Assembly (NCBI GenBank): GCA_046757665.1
Contig: JBHHYO010000023.1
Location: forward strand, 1 to 33,464
Length of the DNA stretch: 33,464 nucleotides
Direction of reading: 5' to 3'
Source of the DNA: Nitrospinales bacterium
GTDB taxonomy: Bacteria > Nitrospinota > Nitrospinia > Nitrospinales > JAJDAT01
Below, piece after piece: positions 4,188 through 22,640 of this stretch. The number at the start of each line of letters is the position of its first letter. Positions within the stretch are counted from its first letter, which is position 1. The notes below the pieces were generated by a model, which ran no database searches, was not told the DNA's origin, and was given only the letters and a program-made list of their open reading frames with translations. A program made the position numbers and the translations under genes.

Positions 4188-4208
4188 TTCCGAAAAAAGG
4201 CGAGGGGC

Positions 4209-8010: not shown

Positions 8011-8048
8011 CGGACCCGCGTTGAGAGCCAATCTCCACTGTGTTGCGT

Positions 8049-9002
8049 ATGTCATCGGAAAACTTCCCTAAAGCTTCCGGGCCGGTGTTCACGGACGATA
8101 ACCGGATAAACCTTTATTTCCTGAATGAGTTGTACGGGAATATTGCCGCGGACGTGTCTCGAAACCTGCGCCCCGTTCTGGGGTGCGACCTCCCCATCAC
8201 CGCCGGGGTGTGGGGCGGTACCTACTTGATCGCCGAGGCCGACGGCCGGTCCAAGCGCAGGATATGGCGGCTTTACTGCATTGTCAACCTGCCGCGCAAC
8301 AGCCCCCTGGACCAGCACGAAAACCTGGAGCATCTGATCGGCTTTTTCTGCCGGGCGCTCGAAACGGCTTTCCGGCCCTACGGCCTGGAGCTTAGCCTGA
8401 ACATGTGGGGCGGCAGACTGCCCTACAGCAACGCCGCCAAACCCAGCATCACCCTGCACATGACCGACGCGAGCCGGCGCGTGAAATGGTTGCGCGTCTT
8501 TTTCGTGTGGAACTCCGCCACCTGGGAGGAGTCCGTGATTCATGACACCGGCCGCAACATCAAGGTCCTCAAGGAGTCCCTGGACCTCGACCGGCGCCCC
8601 CCCGTCCGCGGAGTCGATGAACTCAAGTTTCTTCTCCAGGACGTGATCATTACCTACCGCACCCTGGAAAAAGCCTGCCACCCCGATTTTATCGAACACG
8701 CCGAACCGATTATAGAGGAAGTTACGGAACGTTTCCTCTCCGGGCTGTTCGATGAGGAACTGATCCGGGAACTTTATTTGAAAGTGTATCAAAATGCTCT
8801 GGTTTACGGATTTGAGCAGGCCTTGGAAGGCCCTTATCGCCAGGCCGGGCTCGACGTTCGGCGCATCGAGGGCTGGCCCGTGGAAAAAATCAACTGGGTC
8901 CCGGATGAACTGAAAGAAAAACTGATCCCACCCATCATCGACCTGTTTGCGGGATTCCGGGCCAACCTGGAAAAGAAATATCCGCACCTGTCGGCTTCCT
9001 GA
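8049..9002 (+). CDS. Hypothetical cytoplasmic protein (about 317 aa)
   Basis: Long ORF with protein-like composition and an upstream promoter; no family recognised. Confidence 0.8.
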   Translation: MSSENFPKASGPVFTDDNRINLYFLNELYGNIAADVSRNLRPVLGCDLPITAGVWGGTYLIAEADGRSKRRIWRLYCIVNLPRNSPLDQHENLEHLIGFFCRALETAFRPYGLELSLNMWGGRLPYSNAAKPSITLHMTDASRRVKWLRVFFVWNSATWEESVIHDTGRNIKVLKESLDLDRRPPVRGVDELKFLLQDVIITYRTLEKACHPDFIEHAEPIIEEVTERFLSGLFDEELIRELYLKVYQNALVYGFEQALEGPYRQAGLDVRRIEGWPVEKINWVPDELKEKLIPPIIDLFAGFRANLEKKYPHLSAS

Positions 9003-9030: not shown

Positions 9031-10143
9031 CTACTGGCTTTTTGCGTCAGTCGGCGGGTTGGCGTTCAACGCATTGGCGAACGCCTTGACGGATTTCTGT
9101 TGCTGTCGGATCTCGCGGTACAACTCGCCCAGGGCATAATGGGCGAGGGAGTTCTTCGGGTTGATCCGAATCACTTCATTAAATTCCGCTATGGCATCGT
9201 CGTACCGGCCTTCTTCCCGGTATATCGACCCCAGGTAGGAGTGCGCGACTTCCAGATTGGGATTGAGCCGGACGACTTCCTTGAATTCCCGGATGGCCTT
9301 CGGAGATTTCTGTAGCCCGCCCGAATGGCTTTCGAGGTTCCGGTAGGCGATTCCAAGATTGAGATGGGCGGCGAGCAACTCCGAATCAATTTCCAGCGCT
9401 TGTTTGAACTCCGCGATGGCTTCATCGTACCGTCCGAAGGCAATGTAAGTCTCGCCCAGGGCCAGGTGAATCAAGGCATTTTCCGGTCTGAGCTTCAAGG
9501 TTTCCTTGAGTTCGCGGGTGGCTTTCTGGTAGCGGCCGATTTTTTTATAGGCGAGACCCAGGGAAAAATGGGCTTCGGTGTTTTTCGGATCGACTTCGAC
9601 GGCCTTTTTCAGGAACGGGATCGCTTTTTTGTATTTTCCCGCTTTCTTGAGAATATGGCCGATAGGGTAATAAGCCTCGACCACTTTCGGTTTCAGTTTG
9701 ATGGCTTGATTTAATTCTCTCAGGGCGTTTCGGTATTGTCCGATTGTTTTGTAGGCCAGGCCCAGGTTGTAATGGGCTTTGGGGTCGTTCGGATGGTCCT
9801 TGACCGCCCGCATGTATTCCCCGATCGCTTGCTTGGCCTTGGTTTTTTTCTTGTTGGCGTCCTGGGATTTACCCAGGGCGACGTAAGCGCCGCCCAGGGC
9901 GATCTGCGCCTGGGTGTTCGCCGGGTTGATTTTTACCGCTTCCTTGAGAGCGTCGATGGCCTTTTGATACTGCCCGAGTTTCTGATAGGCGACGCCCAGA
10001 TCATAATAGGCCTTGCCGTTGGCGGGATTTTTTTGAACGGCTGTTTTCAAGGTTTCGATTGCGGGGTCCTCCGCGGCGGTTTCCGCGGCAAACCCGGCAA
10101 GGCAAAGCAAAACAATCAAAAGGGTGCTTAATGTTTTATTCAT
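9031..10143 (-). CDS. Exported tetratricopeptide-repeat protein
   Basis: Signal peptide MNKTLSTLLIVLLCLAGFAA followed by many AHYNLGLAY...A...L...P TPR units. Confidence 0.92.
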   Translation of the reverse strand: MNKTLSTLLIVLLCLAGFAAETAAEDPAIETLKTAVQKNPANGKAYYDLGVAYQKLGQYQKAIDALKEAVKINPANTQAQIALGGAYVALGKSQDANKKKTKAKQAIGEYMRAVKDHPNDPKAHYNLGLAYKTIGQYRNALRELNQAIKLKPKVVEAYYPIGHILKKAGKYKKAIPFLKKAVEVDPKNTEAHFSLGLAYKKIGRYQKATRELKETLKLRPENALIHLALGETYIAFGRYDEAIAEFKQALEIDSELLAAHLNLGIAYRNLESHSGGLQKSPKAIREFKEVVRLNPNLEVAHSYLGSIYREEGRYDDAIAEFNEVIRINPKNSLAHYALGELYREIRQQQKSVKAFANALNANPPTDAKSQ

Positions 10144-10272
10144 GAAAACCGCCCCCATAGTGGATTTTGGATTAAGGACCACTATACCACTTTGGATTTG
10201 ATTTAGACATATGATTAAACCCGAATGCGCGAACGGCTCGGCGGGGAGATTCGAGTCTTGGCCCGCGCGCCG

Positions 10273-10852: not shown

Positions 10853-10871
10853 TTTTGGTATAGAAATTGCT
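10853..10871 (+). promoter_or_regulatory. Sigma54 (-24/-12) promoter of the flgF operon
   Basis: TTTTGG-TATAGAAATT-GCT: GG 10857-10858, N10, GC 10869-10870. Confidence 0.75.
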
Positions 10872-10907: not shown

Positions 10908-11702
10908 ATGAATGAAGGCATCTTTATAGCGGTTTCCGGGGTCATGAAGCAGACCCGCAAGATGGAGGTCCTGAGTAATAATCTGGCCAACCTGAACAAC
11001 GTGGGATTCAAGAAAGACCAACTGGTCTTTGAGGCGTTGATGCCCCCGTTTAAACAGGATACGAGTTTAGAGGCCGGCCGCAACGTTTTGTTGCCGGCGT
11101 CGCAGTCGAATGCAAACGTGGCTTATGTCGGCGTGTCCGGGTTTGCCACCGACATGGCGCAGGGGACATTGGAAAAAACCGGCAACATGTTCGACCTGGC
11201 ATTGGACGGGGAAGGTTATTTTGCCGTGCAAACTCCCGATGGCGTCCGGTACACGCGCAAGGGCAACTTCCAGTTGGATACTAAACTCCAACTGACGACG
11301 CAAAACGGGTTTCCGGTTTTGAACGAGCAGGGCAACCCCCTGGTTATTCAGCAGGGGGGGAGCAATGTCAGCATTGACGTCAACGGCACGATTTCCTCCG
11401 GCGCGGCCTTGAACAATCTGCCGGTGGGCAAAATCAGGGTTTTGAAATTCACTGATGGCGCGTTGCTGGAAAAACAGGGCGACGGTTTGTACAAGACGGT
11501 GGATCCGACCCAAACGGGACAGCCGGCGCCGGGTACCGTGGTGCGCCAGGGGTTTCTTGAACAATCGAACGTCAACAGCGTCGAGGAAATGACCAAAATG
11601 ATCACGACGGTTCGCGGCTTTGAAGGCATGCAACGGCTGATTCGTGGTTTGGATCAAATTGACGGGCAGGCCGCCAACACTCTGGGACGGTTAAACCCAT
11701 AG
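10908..11702 (+). CDS. flgF: Flagellar basal-body rod protein FlgF
   Basis: SNNLANLNNVGFKKD, TGNMFDLALDGEGYF, YTRKGNF and LEQSNVNSVEEM motifs; precedes flgG; AGGAG RBS. Confidence 0.92.
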   Translation: MNEGIFIAVSGVMKQTRKMEVLSNNLANLNNVGFKKDQLVFEALMPPFKQDTSLEAGRNVLLPASQSNANVAYVGVSGFATDMAQGTLEKTGNMFDLALDGEGYFAVQTPDGVRYTRKGNFQLDTKLQLTTQNGFPVLNEQGNPLVIQQGGSNVSIDVNGTISSGAALNNLPVGKIRVLKFTDGALLEKQGDGLYKTVDPTQTGQPAPGTVVRQGFLEQSNVNSVEEMTKMITTVRGFEGMQRLIRGLDQIDGQAANTLGRLNP

Positions 11703-11774: not shown

Positions 11775-12563
11775 ATGATTCGTTCATTGTTTACCGCTTC
11801 CACGGGCATGAAAGCCCAGGACCTCAACGTGAGCGTGATCGCCAACAACCTGGCGAACGTGAACACGGTGGGATTCAAGCGAAGCCGGGCGGATTTTCAA
11901 GACCTGTTGTACCAAACCTTGCGATTGGTGGGAACGTTGTCGCAGAACGGCAACACCGTGCCTACCGGTATGCAGTTGGGACTGGGCGTTAAACCCGCCG
12001 CCATTCAGAAAACTTTTCTGCAAGGCGACTTCGCGCAGACCGAGAACCCTCTGGACCTGGCCATCCAGGGCAAGGGGTTTTTCCAGATTCTCGAGCCGAA
12101 CGGCACCATCGCCTATACCCGCGGCGGTTCCTTCAAGGTGGACAATATCGGCCGGGTCGTGAATTCCGACGGCCTGTTGCTCACTCCGGCCATCACCGTG
12201 CCGCCCAACTTCCTGGCGCTGTCCATTGACCCCCAGGGAACGGTTTCGGTAACGCAGTCGGGTTCGCCGGTGCCCGCCGTCATCGGCAACATCCAGTTGG
12301 CCACTTTCTTGAATCCTCCCGGTTTGTCATCCATCGGATTCAATCTGTTTGAGCAGAGCAATGCCTCGGGGCCGCCGACACTGGGCAATCCGGGGATCCT
12401 TGATGCCGGCACCATCCAGCAGGGTTTCCTCGAACTATCCAACGTCAGCGTCGTGGAAGAGATGGTGAACCTGATCACCGCCCAGCGGGCGTATGAAGTG
12501 AATTCGAAAACGGTGCAGGCCGCCGATGAAATGCTGCAAATTTCCAACAACCTCAGACGGTAA
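11775..12563 (+). CDS. flgG: Flagellar distal rod protein FlgG
   Basis: [37 protein letters not shown] and [23 protein letters not shown] motifs. Confidence 0.97.
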
Positions 12564-12617
12564 TTATTGTGAGACCGAGCAGGTTTTTCATGGTTGCACT
12601 TCTGGAGGCGTGAATCG

Positions 12618-13364
12618 ATGCGTAAAACCGAGAGAGTTTTTAAAATTGTCCTGACCGTATTCGGCGTTTGTTGTTTGACAACGGCATTTGCCCTGGCCGC
12701 TCCGGGAACCGGCTCCCGGGAAACGCAGACCTTGACTTCCGGGGAAATCGTGCGCCAGGGAACCGAATTCCTTCGCGGGATCATGGCTCAGGACGATGAA
12801 GATATTAAGATGACCGTGGAATACCGGGGCAAGGACATGGTTCTGCCCGCGGGTATTCTGCACCTGGAATTCCATCTTGACGGCGGTGTCCGGCGGGCTG
12901 GGCGAATACCCCTGATGGCGAAAATCAAGGTCGATGGCGTTTTAAAACGCGGCGTCTGGCTCACGGCTTTCGTCAAGGCGTATTCCGATGTCGTGAAAAC
13001 CCGGCATCCGCTTCGGGGCGGGCAGATTGTCACCGCGGACGACGTGGTCCTGGAACGCCAGTTGATGAACTCCACGAACGCCCGGGCGGCCACCACCCTG
13101 GACGAGGTGGTGGGGTTTAAAGCTCTCCGCAACCTCGGCGCCGGCGTCGTGCTGACCCCGGACGTGCTGAGGCAAGTCCCGCTCGTCAAACGGGGAGACC
13201 GCGTCCGCCTCATCGTCGAAAAAGGGATCATGAAAATCACCGCCCTGGGCGTTGTCAAGGAAAACGGGTTCAGGGGAAATTTCGTCAAAGTCGAAAATAT
13301 ACGATCCAAAAAAGTCGTTTATGGCCGGGTGGTTGATTCGCACACCGTACAGGTGGAATTTTGA
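12618..13364 (+). CDS. flgA: P-ring formation chaperone FlgA
   Basis: Signal peptide, SAF-like domain and PLVKRGDRV...G...VKVENIRSKKVVYGRV; position between flgG and flgH; GGAGG RBS. Confidence 0.92.
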   Translation: MRKTERVFKIVLTVFGVCCLTTAFALAAPGTGSRETQTLTSGEIVRQGTEFLRGIMAQDDEDIKMTVEYRGKDMVLPAGILHLEFHLDGGVRRAGRIPLMAKIKVDGVLKRGVWLTAFVKAYSDVVKTRHPLRGGQIVTADDVVLERQLMNSTNARAATTLDEVVGFKALRNLGAGVVLTPDVLRQVPLVKRGDRVRLIVEKGIMKITALGVVKENGFRGNFVKVENIRSKKVVYGRVVDSHTVQVEF

Positions 13365-13366
13365 CT

Positions 13367-14089
13367 ATGAATCTTTTGCCTCATTGGCATCGAATTGCCG
13401 CAATAGGGCTGGCGGGTTTGCTGACCGTCTCCTTGTCGGCCTGCGTAACGCATCATCCGGTGAAATCCTCCTTCCCGGAAAAGAAAGAGCGCATTTATCC
13501 TCAAGCGCCGCATCGGCAAGAGGGGTCTGTGTGGAAGGGCGACTCGTTCGATAACGTGCTGTTTTCCGATGCCAAGGCCCGGAACGTCGGAGATATCGTC
13601 ACCATCGTCGTCGAGGAGAACACGAGTTCCTCGCAGACCGCGACCACCCAAACTTCGAGACAAACGGATATGAACCTTCAAACCGGCAAGTTGCTGGGTC
13701 TGCCCAGCAATCTCGGCATCCAGAATTTCCTGGGTTTGGGGAATGGATTTAATCCCAATCTCGACGCGAAAACGGACAAGTCCTTTGACGGTTCGGGGAG
13801 CACGACCCGGAACGGCACTTTGACTTCGACGATCACCGCGGTGATCAAGGAGGTTCTGCCTGACGACAATTTTGTTATCGAAGGCCGCCGCTCGGTCACC
13901 ATCAACAACGAAGAACAGATCATGATTCTCACCGGCGTCATTCGCTATCAGGATATCGGGTTCGACAACTCGGTTTCGTCGCGGTTGATCGCCGACGCCT
14001 CCATCACCTACTCGGGCACAGGAGTGGTCGCCGACGAACAGCGGGTCGGCTGGGGGACTCGGCTCATCAGTTGGATATGGCCTTTTTAG
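13367..14089 (+). CDS. flgH: Flagellar L-ring lipoprotein FlgH
   Basis: Lipobox LSAC, DAKARNVGDIVTI, TGVIRYQDI...NSVSSRLIADA and C-terminal WPF. Confidence 0.96.
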   Translation: MNLLPHWHRIAAIGLAGLLTVSLSACVTHHPVKSSFPEKKERIYPQAPHRQEGSVWKGDSFDNVLFSDAKARNVGDIVTIVVEENTSSSQTATTQTSRQTDMNLQTGKLLGLPSNLGIQNFLGLGNGFNPNLDAKTDKSFDGSGSTTRNGTLTSTITAVIKEVLPDDNFVIEGRRSVTINNEEQIMILTGVIRYQDIGFDNSVSSRLIADASITYSGTGVVADEQRVGWGTRLISWIWPF

Positions 14090-14104: not shown

Positions 14105-14515
14105 ATGATACCTAGAGCGAAATTTTTGTTGCTTGTGTTGTTATTCGGGTTCGCCGGCCTGGCCGGATGCGAGTCGGACGTGGCTAACCGCGTAGGAGTA
14201 AGCTCCGGCGGCCTCATCGTTGCCATCAAGCAATTTTCCGGCAATGCGGGACTTTCGGCGGACGGCGCCAGCCAGGCCACCATTCGAGTAGAAGTTTTCA
14301 CCAACGCCGGCCAGACGGTGGACGGCGCGCAGGTGTTTCTGACGACGACGCTGGGAACGCTGGGGGAAACGAATCTGACCACGACCGCCGGCGTGGCCTT
14401 GACCACGCTGACCGCGGGCACCGTGCCGGGAACGGCTTTTGTGGTTGCCTCCGTGGAAAATGTCAGCGCCACGATCGCCGTGCAAATCGTCAACATCAGC
14501 ACCGAGGCGGGATGA
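14105..14515 (+). CDS. Lipoprotein with one bacterial Ig-like (Big_1/invasin-type) domain
   Basis: Lipobox LAGC; ADGASQATIRVEV...G..V.G..V...TTLGTL...TT..G.A..TLTAG..PG.A.V.A pattern. Confidence 0.8.
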   Translation: MIPRAKFLLLVLLFGFAGLAGCESDVANRVGVSSGGLIVAIKQFSGNAGLSADGASQATIRVEVFTNAGQTVDGAQVFLTTTLGTLGETNLTTTAGVALTTLTAGTVPGTAFVVASVENVSATIAVQIVNISTEAG

Positions 14516-15477
14516 TCATGAGTGACTTGAAAGTTTTTCGGAAAATCGGCAGTCGTTCGTGGCTCGCGCCACATGCCGGACTCTTACTGTTGCTGGGCGC
14601 CGTGCTTCTTGCGGGGTGTGACAACTCCTCCAGCGGCGGCGGGCCGCTTGGCCCCTCCAACACCGCTACCTCCGCCGCCTTGATTCAGGTCACGCCGTCG
14701 TCGGCGACGGTTATCAAGGGAGACGTCATTACCTTCACCGCCGCGGGTGGCACGGGGACGTTCACCTGGAGCGTCAGCGATCCCACGCTGGCTTCCATTG
14801 TTTCCACCACCGGCGTGTTTACCGCCGCGAGCAAAACCGGAACGGTGACTGTCACCGCGATCGATTCCAACGGCGCGCGAGGGACGGCGACCATTTCGAT
14901 TGCCACGAAAACCCTGATCATTGTTCCCGCGAATTCCAAGGTCGGCAAGGGCGCGACACAGGCCTTTGCCGTCAACGGGGCCACCGCGCCCGTCTTCTGG
15001 TCAACGGACAACACGACCATCGGCAGTATAGACGTCAACACCGGCCTCTTTACCGCGGGGATCACCGCGGGAACGGTCAACGTAACGGTCCTGGATGCCG
15101 ACGGCGACACCGCTTCGGCGTCCGTGGAGGTCATTCCCAACGTCATTACCGTGACTCCGGCATCCGTCAGTTTTTCCGCGGTGCCGGTCCCCGACCCGGT
15201 ATTTACCGCGGCGGGTGGATCGGGATCGTTTACTTTCCTGCTTTCCGGAGCGACGAATTCCTTTGCCGGCGCGGCCATTGGCACCGCCGCCGGCAATGTG
15301 ACGGCAACCACCGCGTTGGTCGACGTCACAGCCATGCCTACGGGCAACACTCTGGTCGCCACCGTTTGTACCGCCGGCCAGGGCACGCAAACGCTGACGA
15401 TTACCGCGACGGACAGCAACGGCGACTCCGGCACCGCACAGTTGACATTGATTGCGACGGACGCATGTACTCTGTAG
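14512..15477 (+). CDS. Lipoprotein with about three tandem bacterial Ig-like (Big_2-type) domains
   Basis: Lipobox LAGC; repeated VTP...FTAAGG.G.F.WS.....I....G.FTA....GTV.VT..D..G units; ATGA overlap with the upstream gene. Confidence 0.82.
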   Translation: MIMSDLKVFRKIGSRSWLAPHAGLLLLLGAVLLAGCDNSSSGGGPLGPSNTATSAALIQVTPSSATVIKGDVITFTAAGGTGTFTWSVSDPTLASIVSTTGVFTAASKTGTVTVTAIDSNGARGTATISIATKTLIIVPANSKVGKGATQAFAVNGATAPVFWSTDNTTIGSIDVNTGLFTAGITAGTVNVTVLDADGDTASASVEVIPNVITVTPASVSFSAVPVPDPVFTAAGGSGSFTFLLSGATNSFAGAAIGTAAGNVTATTALVDVTAMPTGNTLVATVCTAGQGTQTLTITATDSNGDSGTAQLTLIATDACTL

Positions 15478-15491
15478 CCTCGAACACGGGA

Positions 15492-16640
15492 ATGAATCGT
15501 ATGTCTTTCTTTCAGGTTCAAAAAAAGTGGGTTGCCGCCCTGGCGCTGGTCTTTCTGATGGCGGATACGGCGGCCGCCGCCCGCATCAAGGACCTGGTGA
15601 ACATCCGGGGGGTTCGTAACAACCAGTTGATCGGCTTTGGGTTGGTGATCGGCTTGAGGAGCACGGGTGACACCGCGACCAACGTTTTCTTTGCCATCCA
15701 GACCGTGGTCAATATGCTGAAAAAGCTGGGGATCACCGTGCCGGACAACAAGGTGGACCAGTTGCAGTTCAAGAATGTCGCCACCGTGGTGGTGACGGCG
15801 GACCTGCCGCCGTTTTCCCTCCAGGGCGACCGCATTGACGTGGTGGTTTCCTCGCTGGGTAATGCCAGCAGTTTGCAGGGGGGAACGTTGCTGATGACGG
15901 CCTTGAAGGGGTCCGACGGCGAAACCTACGCCCTGGCCCAGGGGCCCTTGTCCATCGGCGGATTTTCGGTGCAGGGCGCCGCCCGCGGTGTCCAGAAAAA
16001 CCACCTGCTGGTCGGCCGGGTCGCCAACGGCGGAGTGGTGGAAAAAGAAGTGCCGAAATCCAAATCTTCCCAAACGTTCAACTCCAAGAAGGAAATCGTT
16101 CTTTCCTTGAAAAATAACGACTTCACCACCGCGGCAAGGATTGCCCGGGCCATCAACACCGAAATGAAAGAAGCCTTCGCCGCCCCTGTGGATGGCCGCG
16201 CGGTGCGCGTAAGAATTCCCCCGTTTTATAAAGACAACACCTCGGCCTTCATCACCCGGATCGAAAGTTTGGAAGTCCGGCCGGATTCCTCCGCCAAGGT
16301 GATCGTCGATGAGCGGACGGGCACCGTGGTGATGGGTGAAAACGTCCGCATTTCCACCGTAGCCGTAGCCCACGGGTCGCTTTTCGTGCAAATCCGCGAA
16401 CAACCGATTGCCGTTCAACCCGAGCCCCTCAGCCCAGGAGGGCAAACCGCGATTGTTCCCCGAACCCGGGTGACCGTCGAAGAGGGCGAAGACCGGCTTC
16501 TGGTCGTCCCTCATGGGGTCGGCATCGGCGATGTCGTCAATGCCCTGAATTCCATCGGCGTGACGCCGCGGGACCTGATCTCCATTCTCCAGGCCATTAA
16601 GGCCGCCGGCGCGTTACATGCCGATCTGGAGATTATGTGA
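15492..16640 (+). CDS. flgI: Flagellar P-ring protein FlgI
   Basis: ARIKDLVNIRGVRNNQLIGFGLVIGL, SLQGGTLLMT, DERTGTVVMG and ILQAIKAAGALHA motifs. Start 15492 or 15501. Confidence 0.97.
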   Translation: MNRMSFFQVQKKWVAALALVFLMADTAAAARIKDLVNIRGVRNNQLIGFGLVIGLRSTGDTATNVFFAIQTVVNMLKKLGITVPDNKVDQLQFKNVATVVVTADLPPFSLQGDRIDVVVSSLGNASSLQGGTLLMTALKGSDGETYALAQGPLSIGGFSVQGAARGVQKNHLLVGRVANGGVVEKEVPKSKSSQTFNSKKEIVLSLKNNDFTTAARIARAINTEMKEAFAAPVDGRAVRVRIPPFYKDNTSAFITRIESLEVRPDSSAKVIVDERTGTVVMGENVRISTVAVAHGSLFVQIREQPIAVQPEPLSPGGQTAIVPRTRVTVEEGEDRLLVVPHGVGIGDVVNALNSIGVTPRDLISILQAIKAAGALHADLEIM

Positions 16641-16835: not shown

Positions 16836-16854
16836 TTTTGGTATATGGTTTGCA
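16836..16854 (+). promoter_or_regulatory. Sigma54 (-24/-12) promoter of flgJ-flgN-flgK-flgL
   Basis: TTTTGG-TATATGGTTT-GCA: GG 16840-16841, N10, GC 16852-16853; shares TTTTGGTATA with the flgF promoter. Confidence 0.75.
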
Positions 16855-16944
16855 ACGATAAAGTTTGACTTCAGTTCCGACTTTTTCGGAACGGGTTTTT
16901 TGCGGGACCCGGATTAACGCAAACCTGGAAAATGTGAGGATTCC

Positions 16945-17367
16945 ATGGACATCATGCCTTCGGCGAGAATTCATCCCAGCATCTCAAACAAAATGAGCGA
17001 GCGGAAAATTGAAGACATCCGGATGAAATTGCAGATGCCCGGCACGGGAAAAACCGAGGATGAACTGATGTCGGTCGCCAGGGATTTTGAATCGATCCTG
17101 CTTTACAAAATGGTGGAGTCCATGCGAAGCACCGTGCCGAAATCGGGGCTTTTTGACAGTTTTTCCATGGAAACGTTTCAGTCCATGATGGATCAGGAAA
17201 TCGCCAATGAGATGGCCAAGAAAAAGGGAGTGGGTCTTGCAGACATGGTGTACCGGCAGTTGTCCCGCTTACAGGACATACAGGAGAAGCGCAATGCCGT
17301 TTCCCCGAATGCCGGACGTGAACAAAAACTCCCGATCAATGTCGGGACGCACGGAGAAAACAAATGA
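16945..17367 (+). CDS. flgJ: Rod-binding protein FlgJ (no muramidase domain)
   Basis: VARDFESILLYKMVESMRSTVP...FQSMMDQEIA...GVGLADMVYRQL motif. Confidence 0.9.
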   Translation: MDIMPSARIHPSISNKMSERKIEDIRMKLQMPGTGKTEDELMSVARDFESILLYKMVESMRSTVPKSGLFDSFSMETFQSMMDQEIANEMAKKKGVGLADMVYRQLSRLQDIQEKRNAVSPNAGREQKLPINVGTHGENK

Positions 17368-17867
17368 CCCGGTTATATAAATTGCTTGTTAGCCAGATGC
17401 GTCAGAAGATAGCTCTTTACAATGAATTGATCCCTCTGTTCCAGGAAGAATGGGATTCCATTGTCGATTATTCCCTGGATGAAGTGAGGGCGGTTTTGAA
17501 GAAGAAAGAAATCCTGGCTTTGAAAATGCAAATGCTGGAAGAGAACCGGTTGAAAGTGGTCGCCGAGATCGCAAACCATTTGGGCGTCGACCCCGAAAAT
17601 TTAACCTTAAGGGATATCATCAAAGTGTGCGGGCGTCCGTTGAGCACACAGTTGACCGCTCAAAGGGAAACCCTGCTGTCGCAGATCAGCGCCATTTTCG
17701 ATTACAGCGAAAAAAACAAACATCTGGTCAACCGGTCGTCGTTATCCATCAAGAAATCGCTGGTGTTTTTGCATCGCACCCAGGACTCCGCCGAGGCGGC
17801 CTATGGCGCCGATGGCCACAGGGGGGAAGGGAAAGCGCTGTGCCGAATGTTGAGCACCGAGGTTTGA
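17364..17867 (+). CDS. flgN: Flagellar export chaperone FlgN
   Basis: Helical protein of 167 aa with LEENR...LTL...N..L...Y...G pattern, directly before flgK. Confidence 0.8.
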   Translation: MTRLYKLLVSQMRQKIALYNELIPLFQEEWDSIVDYSLDEVRAVLKKKEILALKMQMLEENRLKVVAEIANHLGVDPENLTLRDIIKVCGRPLSTQLTAQRETLLSQISAIFDYSEKNKHLVNRSSLSIKKSLVFLHRTQDSAEAAYGADGHRGEGKALCRMLSTEV

Positions 17868-17882
17868 CGGGAGAACAGGCTT

Positions 17883-19568
17883 ATGGGTAGCAATGTTTTC
17901 AGCGTATTGAATACCGGAAGGGTGGGGTTGTTGTCCCATCAATTGGCCATCGAGGTGACCGGTCAGAACATCGCCAACGTGCAAACGGAGGGGTTCTCCC
18001 GGCAAAAGGTGGCTCTGGAAGCGGCCACGCCGCGATCCGTCGGCCTGGGCCAGTTGGGAACCGGCGTCCGGGTGGCGGGCATTGAGCGCGCCCACGATTC
18101 GTTTTTGTTCAGCCAGATCGTCGGCGAAAATTCCTCCCTCGGCGAGTTCAAGGCCCGGCAGAATGCCTTCGATCAAATGGAAACCCTTTTCAATGACGGG
18201 TTGGGCGGTAGCCTGAACAACTCCCTGAGCGATTTTTTCTCCAGTCTGCAAGACCTTTCCAACAACCCGTCCGGTTTGGCCGAGCGGGCCGTGGTTCGAG
18301 GGAATGCCCAGTCGCTGGCCTCCGTTTTCAACAACCTCGGCAACCAATTGTTCGATCAACGGGTGAACCTGGACAACGAAATCGGCGCCACGGCGACGGA
18401 AGTCAGCTCCCTGATTTCCCAAATCGCGCAAATGAACAAGGCCGTTCATGAAAACGAAACCAGCCAGGGGTTTGGCGCCAACGACCTGCGAGACCAGCGC
18501 GACCGGCTGGTCAACCAGCTGGCCGAAAAAATCGATGTCACCGTCGTGAATGAGCAGAATGGCCTCCTCAATCTGACGTTGAGCAACGGCCGTCCGCTGG
18601 TTCTCGGTCTTTCCACGTTTTCCTTGTCCACCCGACTCAATGGCGACAATAATGGTTTCCGGGATATTTTGCTGGATGACGGCCAGGGAAACCTGACCAA
18701 CATCACGTCTGACATTAAGGGCGGAAAACTGAAAGGCCTGCTGGACATGCGGGATGTGGAGCTTCCCGCCTCGCGGGACAAGGTGGACCGCCTGGCGGCG
18801 GGTTTCATTCAGGAATTTAATCGCGTTCACGGCCAGGGGTTCGGTTCCGACGGCAGTACCGGAGTTGATTTCTTTCGTCCCCTTTCGCCCACGGTATCGG
18901 CCAATACGGGGAATACCGGTAGCGCCCAGGTTTCCATGAGCAACGCGAACCCCAACCAGGTTTCGGTCGATAAATTTGAAATTACCATTACCGGGGCGAA
19001 CTCGTTTTCCCTGACCAACTTGACGACGGGGGCGGCGGCGGGCGCCTTCACGTTCGCCTCCGGGTCGGCGTTCAATCTGGCCGGCGGGCTGGCCGTGACC
19101 ATCAATGGAGCACCCGCCGTTGGCGACCGGTTCACCTTCTCCGTTTCCGAAAACGCCTCGACGTTGATTCGAGTGGATGATGCCGTTCTCAACGACGCGC
19201 AAAAAATCGCCGCCGGAACCACCCTCGGCGGCGACGGGGACAATGCCCGCCAACTGGCCAATATTCAAAACCGGCTGGCCTTCAATGGCGTGAGCATCGA
19301 CACGGCGGGGTCCGGGATGTTCACCTTCGATGATTTTTACAATTCCATCGTCAGCCAGGTCGGCGTCAGCGCCAGGGCCACGCGAACCACCATGACCCAG
19401 CAGGAAGGGGTGATGGTGCAACTCACCAACCGCCGGGAAAGCGCCGACGGCGTGTCCATTGATGAGGAGATGATCAATCTGATCAAATTCCAGCAGGCCT
19501 TCGCGGCTTCCGCGCGTTTGATTTCCACCGTGGATGAGATGATGAACATTCTGCAAGACAGAATTTAA
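17883..19568 (+). CDS. flgK: Hook-associated protein 1, FlgK
   Basis: TGQNIANVQTEGFSRQ, NDLRDQRD and GVSIDEEMINLIKFQQAFAASAR motifs. Confidence 0.97.
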   Translation: MGSNVFSVLNTGRVGLLSHQLAIEVTGQNIANVQTEGFSRQKVALEAATPRSVGLGQLGTGVRVAGIERAHDSFLFSQIVGENSSLGEFKARQNAFDQMETLFNDGLGGSLNNSLSDFFSSLQDLSNNPSGLAERAVVRGNAQSLASVFNNLGNQLFDQRVNLDNEIGATATEVSSLISQIAQMNKAVHENETSQGFGANDLRDQRDRLVNQLAEKIDVTVVNEQNGLLNLTLSNGRPLVLGLSTFSLSTRLNGDNNGFRDILLDDGQGNLTNITSDIKGGKLKGLLDMRDVELPASRDKVDRLAAGFIQEFNRVHGQGFGSDGSTGVDFFRPLSPTVSANTGNTGSAQVSMSNANPNQVSVDKFEITITGANSFSLTNLTTGAAAGAFTFASGSAFNLAGGLAVTINGAPAVGDRFTFSVSENASTLIRVDDAVLNDAQKIAAGTTLGGDGDNARQLANIQNRLAFNGVSIDTAGSGMFTFDDFYNSIVSQVGVSARATRTTMTQQEGVMVQLTNRRESADGVSIDEEMINLIKFQQAFAASARLISTVDEMMNILQDRI

Positions 19569-19582
19569 GGGGAGAGGCGGTT

Positions 19583-21103
19583 ATGGTGTTTCGAGTCACC
19601 AATCAGGCCCAGCAACAGGCGACACTGAATAATGTGTTCCGGCTCTCCGAGGACATTTTCAACACGACCAACGCCCTGGCGTCCGGCAAGCGCATTGCGC
19701 GGCCGTCCGACGACCCTTCGGGGACGCGGGAAACCCTGTCCCTGCGCACCTCGCTCCGCAAGACCGAGCAGTTCATCCGTAACATAAACGGCATCAAAAA
19801 TTTCACCGGGCGCGCCGATTTGGCGCTCGGTAGCGTCAGCAATGCGCTCACCCGCGCGAAGGAACTGGCCGTGAACCAACTGGGCGGCCTGGCCACCGCG
19901 GAAACGCGGGGGTTTGCCGCCTCGGAAATCGAAAGCCTGATCTCCGAGGTGTTGCAGGCGGGAAACACCCGGGTGGGCAACCGGTTCGCCTTCGGCGGAT
20001 CGAAGGCGGTCGTCGAGCCCTTTCAAAGAAGCGCCTCGGGCGCGGTTTACCTCGGCAACACCGAAAACATCTCCGTGGAAATCGCCCGCAGTCTGAACCT
20101 GAAAATCAATATCCCGGGATCGGATGTGCTGGCCACCGACCTGAACCCCGGCATCGACACGTCCACCTTGCTCTCCGACCTGAACCGCGGGGCGGGCGTT
20201 ACTGCGGGGGCGTTCACCCTTGCCGACCAGGCGGGCAACACCGGCACCGTAAACATCACGGCCTCCATGACCGTGGGTAACGCAATCGCCGCCATCAACG
20301 CCGCCGGCACCAACATCACCGCTTCCGTCAACAGCGCGCAAAACGGCATCAAGCTGACGGATTCCAGCGCCCTCATCGTGCAGGCCCTGACCGTGTCGGA
20401 AGTGAGCGGAGGCAGTACCGCCGCGGACCTCGGCATCCTGGGACAGCGCAATGGCAGTCTGGAAGGCCTGGACCTGGACCCGCGCTTGAACGGCTCGACG
20501 CGGATTTCCCAATTGAACGGCGGCCAGGGGCTGACCTTGTCGTCGATCAACATCGTCAACGGCAGTGCCTCCGGGGCGATCAGCCTGGCTTCCGCCAACA
20601 CCGTGGGCGATGTGCTGGGTTTGATCAACAACGCCGGCCTGAACGTGACCGCCGGAATCTCCAGCCAGGGCAATGTCCTGCGGGTGGTGTCCAACAACAG
20701 CGCCACCACTGCCATTGTCCGGGAAGTGGGAACGGGCACAACCGCCGAGGCTCTGGGCCTGGGAGGCGGACGCAACATCCTCACCTCGCTCATTCAACTC
20801 AAGGAAGCGCTGGGGAAAAACGATTCCACCGCCCTGGCCGCGGTGTTGGAAAACCTCGACACCGGCTTGCGGTCGCTGGGCGCGGCGCGTGCTTCGTTCG
20901 GCGCGGTTGCGCGCCGCGTGGAGGACAGCAACGCCGCCCTCGACCGGGAAACAGTGAATCAAACCGAACAATTGTCCAACATCGAGGACATTGATTTTGC
21001 CCAAAAAGCCTCGGAACTGGCCTCGTTGCAGGTGGCGTTCCAGGCGACCCTGAACTCGACCGCCCGCATTCTTCAGCCGAGCATCCTGGATTTTCTGGCC
21101 TAG
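19583..21103 (+). CDS. flgL: Hook-associated protein 3, FlgL (extended)
   Basis: FRVTN...LASGKRIARPSDDP, NRFAFGG, and C-terminal LSNIEDIDFA...QPSILDFL; follows flgK. Confidence 0.93.
   Translation: MVFRVTNQAQQQATLNNVFRLSEDIFNTTNALASGKRIARPSDDPSGTRETLSLRTSLRKTEQFIRNINGIKNFTGRADLALGSVSNALTRAKELAVNQLGGLATAETRGFAASEIESLISEVLQAGNTRVGNRFAFGGSKAVVEPFQRSASGAVYLGNTENISVEIARSLNLKINIPGSDVLATDLNPGIDTSTLLSDLNRGAGVTAGAFTLADQAGNTGTVNITASMTVGNAIAAINAAGTNITASVNSAQNGIKLTDSSALIVQALTVSEVSGGSTAADLGILGQRNGSLEGLDLDPRLNGSTRISQLNGGQGLTLSSINIVNGSASGAISLASANTVGDVLGLINNAGLNVTAGISSQGNVLRVVSNNSATTAIVREVGTGTTAEALGLGGGRNILTSLIQLKEALGKNDSTALAAVLENLDTGLRSLGAARASFGAVARRVEDSNAALDRETVNQTEQLSNIEDIDFAQKASELASLQVAFQATLNSTARILQPSILDFLA
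20138..20761 (+). repeat. Two tandem ~111-aa protein repeats inside FlgL
   Basis: DLNPGIDTSTLLSDLNRGAG...TVGNAIAAINAAG...TAADLGI versus DLDPRLNGSTRISQLNGGQG...TVGDVLGLINNAG...TAEALGL; starts 333 nt apart. Confidence 0.75.
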
Positions 21104-21166: not shown

Positions 21167-21886
21167 GTGCTGAAAGTCTCGAATATTTTTCTGGCCAAAG
21201 GCAAACCCATCCTCCGAAACGTGTCCTTTGAAATGCGCGGCGGAGAAATCCTGACCATCCTGGGGCCGTCGGGGTCGGGAAAATCCTCCCTGTTGCGGTG
21301 CCTCAACCGCCTTGAGACGATCGACCGCGGAGAAATTTTCCTGAACGGCGTGGAGACCCGCGGAATCGACGCCATCGAACTGCGCCGCCGGGTCGGCATG
21401 GTGTTCCAGACTCCCGCGTTACTGCCCCGGACCGTCCGCGAAAATTTGCTGATCGGCCCCGGGTTTCGCAAGCAATCCCCGGATGAAAAAGAATGCGAGC
21501 GTTTGCTGGAAAGCACCGGTTTGTCCGGAGAGTTTCTGGAACGCGGCGTCGAGGCGCTTTCCGTGGGCGAGCGGCAACGGGTGGCGCTGGCACAGGTTCT
21601 GGCGAACCGCCCGGACGCCCTGCTCATGGACGAACCCACCTCCGCCCTGGACCCGCCGGCGGCCCTGAAAATCGAGGAACTCATCAAAACCATCCACCGC
21701 AACCTGCGCACCATGACTCTGTGGGTTACTCACAACATCGACCAGGCGTTGCGCTTCGACACCCGGACGATCGTTCTGGTCGATGGCGAAGTGGTGGCGC
21801 AGGGCAATATCCGCGACCTGGTGGAGCGGCCCGCCAGCGACGCCTTGAAAACCTTTTTCGACAGCGGAAACAGCCATGAACATTGA
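21167..21886 (+). CDS. fetA: ABC transporter ATP-binding protein (FetA/YbbL/STAR1-like)
   Basis: Walker A GPSGSGKS, signature LSVGERQR, LLMDEPTSALD; paired with a FetB-type permease. Confidence 0.8.
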   Translation: MLKVSNIFLAKGKPILRNVSFEMRGGEILTILGPSGSGKSSLLRCLNRLETIDRGEIFLNGVETRGIDAIELRRRVGMVFQTPALLPRTVRENLLIGPGFRKQSPDEKECERLLESTGLSGEFLERGVEALSVGERQRVALAQVLANRPDALLMDEPTSALDPPAALKIEELIKTIHRNLRTMTLWVTHNIDQALRFDTRTIVLVDGEVVAQGNIRDLVERPASDALKTFFDSGNSHEH

Positions 21887-22640
21887 ATCGTTGGTGCTGG
21901 CGTATGGACTGGTCATCGCGGCGCTCTTGATCTCCTACTACAACGATCTGCGGTTGGAGCGGGACCTGGTTTACAGTTCCCTGCGCGCCACGTTGCAGTT
22001 GATTCTGGTGGGATTCATTCTGGAAGCGGTGTTGAAGATAGACCGGATGGATTACCTGGCCGGTATTTTGCTGTTCATGTGCGGCGTGGCCGCGGTCATT
22101 TCCGGCAAGCGGGGCGAGAAGATTCCGCGCGCCCGCTGGGTGGCGTTCGCGGGCATCGGCGTGGGGTCTTTTTCCACCTTCTGGGTACTGCACCTGGCGG
22201 GGGTGATCCCGTCCGAGGCGCGGTACGTGATCCCGTTGGGCGGCATGATCATCGGCAACGCCATGAAAGCTTCGTCGCTGACGCTGAACCGCCTGACGGG
22301 CGAACTGGAACAGCAAAGGCCGCGGATCGAGACCCTGCTGGCGCTGGGGGCGAACGCCCGGCAGGCCGCCGCGCAACCCGTGTGCCAGGCCGTCCGCGCC
22401 GCCATGATCCCCACCATCGACACCCTGAAAACCGTGGGCCTGGTGCACCTGCCCGGGATCATGACCGGATTCATCATCGCCGGCGGGTCGCCCTTGACGG
22501 CGGTCAAATACCAGTTGGCGGTCATGTACATGATCGCCGGGGCGACGGGCATCACCTGCCTGATCGTTACCCTGCTGGCTTACCGGCAATGTTTCACGGC
22601 GGACCTGCAACTGTCCGCCGGCTTTCGTCCTTCGGAGTGA
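21876..22640 (+). CDS. fetB: ABC transporter permease, UPF0014 (FetB/YbbM/STAR2) family
   Basis: RATLQL, YVIPLGGMIIGNAM, ALGA and KTVGLVHLPGIMTGFIIAGGSP..AVKYQ motifs. Confidence 0.9.
   Translation: MNIESLVLAYGLVIAALLISYYNDLRLERDLVYSSLRATLQLILVGFILEAVLKIDRMDYLAGILLFMCGVAAVISGKRGEKIPRARWVAFAGIGVGSFSTFWVLHLAGVIPSEARYVIPLGGMIIGNAMKASSLTLNRLTGELEQQRPRIETLLALGANARQAAAQPVCQAVRAAMIPTIDTLKTVGLVHLPGIMTGFIIAGGSPLTAVKYQLAVMYMIAGATGITCLIVTLLAYRQCFTADLQLSAGFRPSE

What the first reader, a model, noticed from the sequence alone, without database searches (positions are those of the whole stretch)
14105..15477. Two Ig-like lipoprotein genes inserted between the L-ring (flgH) and P-ring (flgI) genes: candidate uncharacterised flagellar outer-membrane or adhesin module
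Seen: flgH and flgI are separated by two tightly packed same-strand genes (15 nt after flgH, ATGA overlap between them, 14 nt before flgI) with no room for an intergenic promoter or terminator. They should therefore be co-transcribed from the sigma54 flgF promoter. Both have a LAGC lipobox. One is a single Big_1/invasin-type domain. The other has about three Big_2-type repeats, a Ser/Gly linker and a C-terminal Cys pair (TVCT...DACTL) that could form a disulfide. Known: flgH and flgI are usually adjacent, and described accessory ring/disk lipoproteins (Vibrio FlgO/FlgP, Campylobacter FlgP) are not tandem-Big proteins as far as I know. Inference: these may form a lineage-specific collar or disk around the LP bushing, or a flagellum-linked surface adhesin.
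Basis: partly seen in the sequence, partly recalled or inferred. Interest (0 to 1): 0.78.

Follow-up and report, generated by a model that had tools for sequence, protein, structure and literature searches.

The report
Ig-fold lipoprotein pair between flgH, flgI
Two small immunoglobulin-fold lipoprotein genes sit inside the flagellar ring operon of many Nitrospinota bacteria; they are probably an undescribed, dispensable add-on to the outer part of the flagellar motor, but no experiment has yet placed them there.

Summary
Two tightly packed lipoprotein genes lie between flgH (13361-14089) and flgI (15492-16640). I call them BigA (14105-14515, 136 aa, one invasin-type Big_1 domain) and BigB (14512-15477, 321 aa, three Ig domains). 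The window belongs to a Nitrospinota genome.

- **Distribution:** across 120 species genomes of the phylum, FlgH is found in 85 and BigA in 54. All 54 also have FlgH. In 53 of them BigA lies directly downstream of flgH.
- **Absence:** no genome without FlgH has a BigA orthologue. Flagellated lineages without the pair have flgH abutting flgI.
- **History:** a FlgH+FlgI tree needs at least 4 changes, read here as one gain and three losses.
- **Transcription:** a sigma-54 -24/-12 element lies upstream of flgF in 22 of 22 relatives. None lies between flgH and flgI.
- **Divergence:** both proteins diverge about as fast as accepted flagellar proteins of the same operon.

My best reading, at about 0.55, is a lineage-specific, non-essential accessory of the LP-ring region. 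It would be analogous to YecR, FapH or FlgO/FlgP but not homologous to them. No physical association is shown. The C-terminal Cys pair is unique to this genome. I rate it a new variant of a known kind, of moderate interest.

The parts
10856..10870 (+). sigma-54-type -24/-12 element (TGGTATAGAAATTGC), 38 nt upstream of the flgF ATG
   Evidence: The pattern TGGYAY-N5-TTGC has 3 matches in the window against 0.25 expected. The same element lies upstream of flgF in 22 of 22 related loci.
10908..11702 (+). flgF (proximal rod protein)
   Evidence: Pfam LlgE_F_G_D1, Flg_bbr_C and Flg_bb_rod.
11775..12563 (+). flgG (distal rod protein)
   Evidence: Pfam LlgE_F_G_D1 5.5e-24 and Flg_bbr_C 4.5e-22.
12594..13364 (+). 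flgA (P-ring assembly chaperone)
   Evidence: Pfam ChapFlgA 2.2e-27.
13361..14089 (+). flgH (L-ring lipoprotein, lipobox LSAC)
   Evidence: Pfam FlgH 3.8e-56; NCBIfam FlgH models.
14105..14515 (+). BigA: 136-aa lipoprotein (LAGC, Cys22) with one invasin-type Big_1 domain
   Evidence: Pfam Invasin_D3 33.6 bits and Big_1 30.5 bits. Model pLDDT 84. Invasin 1cwv at Z 14.5, rmsd 1.1 A over 92 residues. Found in 54 of 120 phylum genomes, and next to flgH in 53 of those 54.
14512..15477 (+). BigB: 321-aa lipoprotein (LAGC, Cys36) with a conserved GPLGPS tether motif at residues 44-49 and three Ig domains
   Evidence: Pfam BiPBP_C 46.2 bits in 2 stretches. Model pLDDT 85. Big_2 fold at Z 12.6. Directly downstream of BigA in 50 of 54 BigA-positive genomes. 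Tether motif found in 20 of 29 orthologues.
15492..16640 (+). flgI (P-ring protein)
   Evidence: Pfam FlgI 3.7e-134.
16839..16853 (+). second sigma-54-type element (TGGTATATGGTTTGC), upstream of flgJ; marks the start of the next transcription unit
   Evidence: The same position between flgI and flgJ carries the element in 15 of 17 related loci that reach it.
16945..21103 (+). flgJ (rod-binding domain only), flgN, flgK and flgL: the downstream flagellar unit
   Evidence: Pfam Rod-binding 3.3e-20 and FlgN 1e-21. FlgK_D1 2.1e-64 and Flagellin_N/C.

Best explanation
BigA and BigB are a Nitrospinota-specific pair of periplasm-facing, Ig-fold lipoproteins. I infer that they are made together with the rod, the P-ring chaperone and the L- and P-ring proteins, from the sigma-54 promoter upstream of flgF. 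I also infer that they assemble next to the LP ring as a non-essential motor accessory.

- **BigA:** one Big_1 domain on a tether of about 10 residues. It would sit close to the membrane beside FlgH, as YecR does on the Salmonella L ring.
- **BigB:** a conserved tether motif followed by 1 to 5 Ig domains, depending on lineage. It would extend further into the periplasm.

Shown here: the gene content, the folds, the lipoprotein signals, the conserved operon position and promoter element, the phylum-wide distribution, the repeated loss, and divergence rates like those of flagellar proteins.

Inferred, not shown: co-transcription, lipidation, which membrane holds the anchor, any contact with FlgH or FlgI, and any ring formation.
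For: 1. **Conserved position.**
   - flgA-flgH-BigA-BigB-flgI was found in 11 of 11 order-level relatives.
   - It was also found in 23 of 26 public Nitrospinota loci; the other 3 are cut by a contig end.
   - Phylum-wide, BigA is in 54 of 120 genomes, all of them FlgH-positive, and directly downstream of flgH in 53. The exception, G045, has both genes at contig ends.
   - BigB is directly downstream of BigA in 50 of the 54.
2. **A second, independent link for BigB.** In G046, from another order, a 433-aa five-Ig BigB-like lipoprotein is the first gene after the sigma-54 element. It is followed by flgF-flgG-flgA-flgH-BigA-flgI.
3. **Operon structure.**
   - The sigma-54 element lies upstream of flgF in 22 of 22 loci, and again between flgI and flgJ in 15 of 17. 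None lies between flgH and flgI.
   - Intergenic gaps are short. BigA-BigB has a median of 6 nt (range -4 to 58). BigB-flgI has a median of 13 nt (maximum 54).
4. **Sequence constraint.** Mean pairwise identity over 17 loci (136 pairs) is 49.1% for BigA and 39.1% for BigB. For comparison: FlgH 54.9, FlgF 51.3, FlgN 43.0, FlgA 38.5, FlgJ 37.1.
5. **Vertical descent with the operon.** BigA identities correlate with those of FlgH and FlgI at r = 0.89-0.91.
6. **Lipoprotein signal.** The lipobox Cys is present in all 27 BigA and all 26 BigB sequences inspected and is invariant in alignments A1 and A4.
7. **Precedent.**
   - YecR is a single-domain lipoprotein bound to each FlgH (passages of bioRxiv 10.1101/2020.12.05.413195).
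   - FapH is a lipoprotein ring that is not needed for motility (passages of PMC11756786).
   - FlgO and FlgP are a pair of lipidated ring proteins (passages of PMC13521929).
Against: - There is no evidence of physical association with the motor.
- The co-absence of the pair and of flgH is partly trivial, because they share one locus.
- Big_1 and Big_2 domains are best known from extracellular adhesins and phage decoration proteins.
- The residue after the lipid-bearing Cys is Asp in BigB and Glu in BigA and varies among relatives. The anchoring membrane cannot be read from the sequence.
- BigB varies from 1 to 5 Ig domains, which argues against a tightly fixed geometry.
- The pair is missing from 31 of the 85 FlgH-positive genomes. 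[quoted passage not shown]
- A search for FlgH or FlgI columns that change after loss of the pair gave nothing convincing.
Confidence: 0.55

Rival explanations
1. Transient periplasmic assembly factors. BigA and BigB would help FlgH or FlgI insert or oligomerise, or help the rod and hook pass the wall and outer membrane. They would not stay in the finished motor, as with FlgA for the P ring or FlhE in Salmonella.
For: The genes lie in the same operon as flgA, between the two ring genes. Loss in several flagellated lineages shows they are not core structure. [quoted passage not shown]
Against: A lipid anchor and a string of Ig domains are more typical of fixed scaffolds than of chaperones. Two co-conserved proteins, one with a variable domain count, have no known chaperone parallel. 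Nothing here tells this reading apart from the structural one.
Confidence: 0.15
2. Flagellum-co-regulated surface proteins. The two lipoproteins would be exported to the cell surface and act as adhesins or a surface coat during the motile phase, without being part of the motor.
For: The nearest solved folds are domains of invasin, intimin and InvE (BigA) and of LigA, S-layer and phage surface proteins (BigB). NCBI names for family members are 'invasin domain 3-containing' or 'Ig-like domain-containing' protein.
Against: BigA is a single domain of about 115 mature residues, with no beta-barrel anchor and no tip domain. Both proteins diverge at the pace of periplasmic flagellar proteins rather than faster. 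They have kept their place inside a rod-and-ring operon across the phylum.
Confidence: 0.15
3. Inner-membrane-anchored periplasmic scaffold. The lipoproteins would stay in the inner membrane and form a collar near the MS ring or the stators, as the collar or cage proteins of other motors do, rather than near the L ring.
For: The window's BigB has Asp at position +2 after the lipid-bearing Cys. By recalled knowledge, not tested here, that residue retains lipoproteins in the inner membrane of E. coli. Three Ig domains could span much of the periplasm.
Against: The +2 residue is not conserved among orthologues: D, E, N, Q, S and T all occur. The sorting rule is known only for enterobacteria. The gene position points to the ring genes rather than the stator genes.
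Confidence: 0.08
4. Passenger genes. An old insertion with an envelope function unrelated to flagella, kept in place only because it lies within an operon.
For: The flagellar genes persist without the pair in 31 of 85 genomes. A BigB-domain paralogue lies outside any flagellar locus in the same genome, on contig 118 next to FG-GAP and GspA-like genes.
Against: The pair has been retained under constraint across family- and order-level divergence. BigB moved within the same operon, not out of it, in G046. No orthologue of BigA was found outside the flgH neighbourhood.
Confidence: 0.07

Closest known systems
YecR (Salmonella/E. coli L-ring-associated lipoprotein, Pfam PF13992)
   Same: A small single-domain lipoprotein belonging to the flagellar regulon, bound one-to-one to FlgH on the outside of the L ring, and not required for L-ring formation (passages). 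BigA is likewise a small single-domain lipoprotein, it is encoded next to flgH, and it is dispensable in evolution.
   Different: No sequence relationship. The Pfam scan of BigA and BigB lists no YecR match at E up to 0.1, and the genome has no PF13992 match. yecR is not inside the flg operon (recalled, not checked here). BigA has an invasin-type Ig fold. Binding of BigA to FlgH is not shown.
FlgO/FlgP of the Vibrio H ring, and the FlgP basal disk of Campylobacter and Helicobacter
   Same: A pair of N-terminally lipidated proteins that form concentric outer-membrane-associated rings around the LP ring. They are lineage-specific motor accessories (passages of PMC13521929).
   Different: BigA and BigB give no LPP20 (FlgP) match in the Pfam scan. 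The genome has no FlgT_N match. The two marginal LPP20 matches in this genome lie on another contig, outside the flagellar cluster. Ig folds have not been described for these rings in the passages I read.
FapH (Helicobacter pylori HP0838)
   Same: A lipoprotein encoded beside a motor-accessory gene. It forms an outer-membrane-associated ring, is not needed for motility, and is proposed to protect the outer-membrane barrier during rotation (passages of PMC11756786). This gives a plausible role for a dispensable accessory.
   Different: A different lineage (Campylobacterota) and a different gene neighbourhood (next to flgP). Homology was not tested here because I held no FapH sequence.
FlhE (Salmonella periplasmic flagellar protein)
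   Same: A lineage-restricted periplasmic protein encoded in a flagellar operon that guards correct passage of the flagellum through the envelope (abstract and section headings of PMC11247099).
   Different: By recall, FlhE is soluble rather than a lipoprotein, and is a single gene in the flhBAE operon. No relationship was tested.
Intimin/invasin inverse autotransporters (Big_1 domains)
   Same: BigA's domain is the same fold: 1cwv at Z 14.5 and intimin at Z 12.6-12.7, with a weak HMM match to one intimin repeat.
   Different: No beta-barrel, no repeat array and no lectin-like tip. NCBIfam intimin scores are about 20 bits against a cut-off of 1400. BigA is a lipoprotein of 136 aa.

Membership tests
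Bacterial lipoproteins (signal peptidase II substrates) | N-terminal signal peptide ending in a lipobox with an invariant Cys | tested here: met
   LAGC in both window proteins. A hydrophobic stretch followed by [GAS]C was seen by eye in all 27 BigA and all 26 BigB orthologues printed; a stricter regular expression matched 22 and 24. The Cys is invariant in A1 and A4.
Bacterial lipoproteins (signal peptidase II substrates) | Actual lipidation, and the membrane in which the anchor sits | not testable with these tools
   No experimental data. The +2 residue is variable.
Big_1 / Invasin_D3 (PF02369 / PF09134) | HMM match over the curated cut-off | tested here: met
   Invasin_D3 at 33.6 bits against a cut-off of 33. 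Big_1 at 30.5 bits is below its cut-off of 34.9. Most listed homologues carry both families in the precomputed annotation.
Big_1 / Invasin_D3 (PF02369 / PF09134) | Invasin-type Ig fold | tested here: met
   1cwv at Z 14.5, rmsd 1.1 A over 92 residues, 27% identity.
Big_2 (PF02368) | HMM match | tested here: not met
   No Big_2 match for the window's BigB at E up to 0.1; the match is to BiPBP_C (46.2 bits, cut-off 26.8). The G046 relative does match Big_2 (42.1 bits, cut-off 22.8).
Big_2 (PF02368) | Big_2-type Ig fold | tested here: met
   Domain 2 against the Big_2 domain of 7quz: Z 12.6, rmsd 1.5 A over 77 residues. Domain 1 against phage Ig-like domains: Z 10.8.
YecR (PF13992) | HMM match to the YecR family | tested here: not met
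   Not among the Pfam matches of BigA or BigB at E up to 0.1. No match in the whole genome, while the E. coli control matched.
FlgP / LPP20 (PF02169) | HMM match to LPP20 | tested here: not met
   Not among the Pfam matches of BigA or BigB. The genome's LPP20 matches are other genes on contig 19.
FlgT (PF16548 and related) | HMM match to the FlgT N-terminal domain | tested here: not met
   No match in BigA or BigB or in the genome.
FlgO, FapH | Sequence or fold relationship | not tested
   I held no family accession or sequence for either.
Inverse autotransporter adhesins (intimin/invasin) | N-terminal outer-membrane beta-barrel plus an array of Big_1 repeats and a tip domain | tested here: not met
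   BigA has 136 aa and one domain. NCBIfam intimin scores are 20.2-20.6 bits against cut-offs of 1400-2050. No IAT_beta match.
Flagellar motor accessory proteins (functional class) | Encoded and regulated with basal-body genes | tested here: met
   Conserved position inside the flgF-to-flgI unit, behind a conserved sigma-54 element, with no internal element. This is in silico only; no RNA data were available.
Flagellar motor accessory proteins (functional class) | Physical presence in the motor | not testable with these tools
   This needs cryo-electron tomography or basal-body proteomics.

The most novel reading that the evidence does not exclude
BigA and BigB build a new kind of flagellar outer ring made of immunoglobulin-fold lipoproteins. 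[quoted passage not shown] BigB, held by its conserved tether motif, would project a lineage-tunable stalk of 1 to 5 Ig domains toward the P ring and the cell wall. Together they would form a collar that stabilises the outer membrane around the rotating bushing in Nitrospinota. No Ig-fold disk or collar of this kind turned up in the four literature searches I ran.
Probability: 0.3. Interest if true: 0.72.

Novelty: new variant of a known kind. Interest (0 to 1): 0.55.

Why it matters
Lineage-specific accessories of the flagellar motor, such as the H and T rings, basal disks, FapH and YecR, are the main source of motor diversity. They have been found almost only in cultured Proteobacteria, Campylobacterota and spirochaetes.

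This finding gives a named, testable candidate in a poorly studied phylum of marine and subsurface nitrite oxidisers. According to the passage I read, flagella have never been seen in cultured members of that phylum (PMC5029188).

The natural presence and absence of the pair among close relatives is a ready-made comparison for cryo-electron tomography. It also shows that common Ig modules can be recruited into a rod-and-ring operon and kept there across the deep divergences sampled here.

If the pair proves to be only co-regulated surface proteins, it would still show a link between motility and surface display.

Tried and rejected
- **Complex prediction.** FlgH (two copies, residues 28-242, alignment A3) with BigA (residues 22-136, alignment A4) returned 'no answer' with score 0.00, and the controls were not run. 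This is evidence neither for nor against binding.
- **Expression.** No RNA run holds the stretch. Only two DNA runs from one study hold it, and they may be the source sample.
- **FlgH and FlgI columns after loss of the pair.** I looked for columns conserved in pair-carrying genomes but changed in at least 2 of 3 loss clades. The counts were FlgH 6 of 72, FlgI 4 of 184, FlgA 2 of 15 and FlgJ 3 of 17. Two of the loss clades are neighbours on the tree, so shared ancestry explains most of these. I draw nothing from it.
- **Profile search of 1.84 billion representatives with A1**. It gave 2183 matches, but the list of 150 is dominated by giant multi-repeat Big_1 proteins. Only six single-domain proteins of 131-147 aa appear, so it says little about range.
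- **Length-restricted search**. It gave 490 proteins, and every organism name shown among the best 120 is a Nitrospin* name. Most rows carry no name.
- **Pattern scan of genome contigs**. It finds close relatives only, so the absence of hits in other phyla is weak evidence.
- **Fold searches.** No flagellar protein appears in the lists shown for BigA or BigB. By those tools' own rule this does not exclude one.
- **C-terminal Cys pair.** Rejected as a family feature.
- **'1 TAA inside' flags on many BigA matches**. I read these as the profile running a few residues upstream past the flgH stop, because the open frames are full length. They are not pseudogenes; this was confirmed for G015 and G031.
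- **Literature searches**. I found no paper describing Ig-fold lipoproteins between flgH and flgI. Subscription-only papers and supplements were not seen.
Full report
**What is in the window**

The region holds a compact flagellar cluster on the + strand:

| Gene | Coordinates |
|---|---|
| flgF | 10908-11702 |
| flgG | 11775-12563 |
| flgA | 12594-13364 |
| flgH | 13361-14089 |
| inserted gene 1 (BigA) | 14105-14515 |
| inserted gene 2 (BigB) | 14512-15477 |
| flgI | 15492-16640 |
| flgJ (rod-binding domain only) | 16945-17367 |
| flgN | 17364-17867 |
| flgK | 17883-19568 |
| flgL | 19583-21103 |

The cluster is flanked by non-flagellar genes. I call the inserted genes BigA and BigB; these names are mine.

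**The two proteins**

BigA has 136 aa. It has a signal peptide ending in LAGC (Cys22), a short tether and one Ig domain.
- Pfam gives Invasin_D3 at 33.6 bits (cut-off 33) and Big_1 at 30.5 bits (below its cut-off of 34.9).
- An AlphaFold2 model built on 13 orthologues has pLDDT 84, and above 90 across the domain.
- The model aligns to an invasin domain (1cwv) at Z 14.5, rmsd 1.1 A over 92 residues, and to intimin domains at Z 12.6-12.7. Foldseek agrees more weakly.

BigB has 321 aa. It has a signal peptide ending in LAGC (Cys36), a low-confidence tether carrying GPLGPS at residues 44-49, and three Ig domains at about residues 59-131, 136-208 and 213-313 (pLDDT 85).
- Pfam calls the first two domains BiPBP_C (46.2 bits, two stretches).
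- By fold they are Big_2-like: 7quz at Z 12.6, rmsd 1.5 A over 77 residues, with LigA and phage Ig-like domains at Z 10.5-11.4. A profile search of solved structures finds a phage SU10 surface protein and LigA.
- The third domain is a more divergent Ig domain, with Z about 9.

The two C-terminal cysteines (C286 and C319) lie in an insertion and a tail that none of the 12 aligned relatives has. The proposed disulfide is therefore a peculiarity of this genome.

A profile-profile comparison of the two families aligns only the signal peptide, the lipobox and the following '(V/L)GPS' stretch (probability 80%, 34 columns). The Ig domains themselves are not detectably related to each other.

**Whose genome it is, and how far the pair reaches**

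The window is contig 23 of a 2.97-Mb genome in 160 contigs, 97.6% complete. A pattern scan of one genome per prokaryote species found 26 loci that encode a BigA relative. Of these, 25 carry Nitrospin* names in their record titles and one is titled 'uncultured bacterium'.
- In 23 of the 26 the order is flgH-BigA-BigB-flgI. The other 3 end at a contig edge inside or just after the pair.
- Eleven of eleven loci from order-level relatives show the same order.

A census of all 120 Nitrospinota species genomes held, the window's own included, gives the following (my tally from the tables):
- FlgH (PF02107) is found in 85.
- BigA (profile A1) gives strong matches in 54. One further weak match (E 6e-6) lies inside a 1102-aa frame of a genome without FlgH, and is a different Big_1 protein.
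- All 54 BigA genomes have FlgH. In 53, BigA lies on the same contig and strand directly downstream of flgH.
- In the remaining genome, G045, flgH starts one contig and BigA lies 151 nt from the end of another.
- BigB (profile A2) lies directly downstream of BigA in 50 of the 54. One of these, G018, is split by a contig break. In one genome (G046) BigB is at the head of the same operon. In one (G045) only a 713-aa relative is found, elsewhere. In two incomplete genomes (G086, G087) it was not found.
- None of the 35 genomes without FlgH has a BigA orthologue.

This co-absence is only weak evidence, because the genes share a locus and would be lost, or left unassembled, together.

**Lineages without the pair**

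Thirty-one FlgH-positive genomes lack BigA.
- In 26 of them I could check the locus, and flgH directly abuts flgI. Seventeen were read from fetched loci. Nine follow from the match coordinates, with gaps of about 110-190 nt.
- Five could not be judged. G081 and G104 end at contig edges. G108 has flgH at a contig end. G052 and G112 were not examined.

A quick maximum-likelihood tree of concatenated FlgH+FlgI has 42 rows: 25 with the pair and 17 without. Rows were left out if either protein was truncated or the sequences were identical. The tree is rooted on the most distant family. It needs at least 4 changes of state, against a mean of 13.6 in 500 label shuffles, none as low. The simplest reading is one gain at the base of the order-level clade and three losses. 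Two families of other orders that carry BigA (f5, f6) are not on this tree, so the gain may be older.

The pair is thus old, vertically inherited and repeatedly dispensable. Vertical descent is supported by BigA pairwise identities, which correlate with those of FlgH and FlgI at r = 0.89-0.91.

**Operon structure**

- The pattern TGGYAY-N5-TTGC, a sigma-54 -24/-12 type element, occurs three times in the window against 0.25 expected. The sites are 38 nt upstream of flgF (10856-10870), upstream of flgJ (16839-16853), and on the other strand inside a permease gene (22373-22387).
- In 22 of 22 related loci that include the flgF start, the element lies just upstream of flgF.
- In 15 of 17 loci that reach the flgI-flgJ spacer, a second element lies there.
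- None lies between flgH and flgI. The only other + strand matches are two in flgA.
- The consensus scan found no + strand terminator-like site between flgH and flgI.
- Gaps between the longest open frames are short throughout:

| Junction | Median gap (nt) | Range or maximum |
|---|---|---|
| flgH-BigA | 14.5 | maximum 77; one value of 790 is set aside (see below) |
| BigA-BigB | 6 | -4 to 58 |
| BigB-flgI | 13 | maximum 54 |

The 790-nt value is L033. There flgH is duplicated and the script measured from the first copy. Measured from the second copy, the gap is 18 nt.

The inferred unit is P(sigma-54)-flgF-flgG-flgA-flgH-BigA-BigB-flgI. This is sequence inference only, because no RNA run holds the region.

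**An independent arrangement**

In G046, a genome from another order of the same class, BigA alone lies between flgH and flgI. A 433-aa lipoprotein with five BigB-type repeats matches both Big_2 and BiPBP_C in Pfam and carries the same 'NPVGPS' tether motif. It is the first gene after the sigma-54 element and is followed by flgF-flgG-flgA-flgH-BigA-flgI. BigB-type genes have therefore been kept in this operon in two different positions. Simple passive linkage does not explain that.

**Constraint**

Over 17 loci with all nine genes complete (136 pairs), mean pairwise identities are:

| Protein | Mean pairwise identity (%) |
|---|---|
| FlgG | 75.5 |
| FlgI | 68.3 |
| FlgH | 54.9 |
| FlgF | 51.3 |
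| BigA | 49.1 |
| FlgN | 43.0 |
| BigB | 39.1 |
| FlgA | 38.5 |
| FlgJ | 37.1 |

BigA and BigB fall inside the range of accepted flagellar proteins of the same operon.

BigB varies in its number of Ig domains:
- one domain (122-128-aa ORFs in G015 and G031; a 126-aa open frame in G078)
- two domains (about 200-235 aa, either domains 1+2 or 2+3)
- three domains (about 295-321 aa)
- five domains (G046)

A motif of the form [GNKDE]P[LVFI][GAS][PT][ST] lies 5-9 residues after the lipid-bearing Cys in 20 of 29 orthologues. Near-variants occur in others. It is the best-kept feature across these length variants.

**What it most likely is**

The evidence fits a lineage-specific accessory of the outer part of the flagellar basal body, made with the rod and ring proteins. 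Known precedents are of the same general kind but unrelated in sequence:
- YecR is a single-domain lipoprotein bound to each FlgH on the outside of the Salmonella L ring, and is not required for ring formation (passages).
- FapH is a Helicobacter lipoprotein ring that is not needed for motility but is needed to keep the outer-membrane barrier intact during rotation (passages).
- FlgO and FlgP are two lipidated proteins that form concentric outer-membrane-associated rings around the Vibrio LP ring (passages).

BigA and BigB give no match to the YecR, LPP20 or FlgT families. The genome has no YecR or FlgT_N match. Its two marginal LPP20 matches lie elsewhere.

I put about 0.55 on 'physically associated, non-essential accessory of the LP-ring region'. 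The rivals and their weights are:

| Rival reading | Weight |
|---|---|
| transient assembly factor | 0.15 |
| co-regulated surface protein | 0.15 |
| inner-membrane-anchored scaffold | 0.08 |
| unrelated passenger | 0.07 |

The anchoring membrane cannot be read from the sequence. The residue after the Cys is Asp (BigB) or Glu (BigA) here and varies in relatives.

**What is not shown**

Nothing here demonstrates lipidation, localisation, co-transcription, ring formation or contact with FlgH or FlgI. The one complex prediction allowed gave no answer. A look for FlgH or FlgI columns that change after loss of the pair was inconclusive. [quoted passage not shown] No structural data exist to compare with.

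**Novelty**

Family members with a source name are called 'hypothetical', 'invasin domain 3-containing' or 'Ig-like domain-containing' protein. The protein-atlas neighbours of both proteins are small Nitrospinota clusters without a functional name. Five full-text searches turned up no description of Ig-fold lipoproteins between flgH and flgI. Subscription-only literature and supplements were not seen.

Motor accessory lipoproteins are a known kind. An Ig-fold pair fixed between the L- and P-ring genes of a whole phylum is a new variant of it.

Noticed in passing
L005:31-1048 and L033:2449-3964 (G008 and a 'Nitrospina sp.' MAG): Two tandem flgH copies (about 44% and 56-60% identical to the window's FlgH) precede BigA in these two related genomes. 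A duplicated L-ring gene is unusual.
   Followed up: no
G000 contig 118, L072:4694-5137 (- strand): A 147-aa lipoprotein (VLGC) in the window's own genome has a single domain 47% identical to BigB domain 3. Its neighbours are an FG-GAP repeat protein, a GspA-like AAA_22+PG_binding_1 protein and an M23 peptidase. It is not in a flagellar locus.
   Followed up: partly
L074:2081-4222 (G045 contig 219): A 713-aa protein with about eight BigB-type repeats lies in a genome where BigA alone sits before flgI (297-nt gap, L070). Its neighbourhood was not examined.
   Followed up: no
window 22373-22387 (- strand): A perfect sigma-54 consensus (TGGCACACGGGTTGC) lies inside, and antisense to, a UPF0014 permease gene (21876-22640, +) that follows an ABC ATPase gene (21167-21886, +). 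No obvious downstream gene on that strand was identified.
   Followed up: partly
window 16945-17367: FlgJ here is only the rod-binding domain (140 aa) with no muramidase domain, so a separate wall-cutting enzyme is presumably used. Relatives are also short (93-241 aa).
   Followed up: no
G000 contig 19, L077:4113-5734: A 211-aa LPP20-family protein (the family that includes FlgP; 29.2 bits, cut-off 25.9) is directly followed by a trypsin-like peptidase gene. A 730-aa LPP20+DUF4384 protein lies divergently upstream. No flagellar genes were seen nearby.
   Followed up: partly
window 3642-5714 (+) and 8040-9002 (+): Two long open frames (690 aa and 320 aa) upstream of the flagellar cluster have no Pfam match at E up to 0.05. 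The second is followed, on the opposite strand, by a 383-aa TPR protein with a signal-like N-terminus (9031-10182, -).
   Followed up: no
window 16874-16892 (+): A terminator-like hairpin with a T run lies between the second sigma-54-like element (16839-16853) and the flgJ start (16945), that is, inside the predicted leader of the flgJ unit.
   Followed up: no
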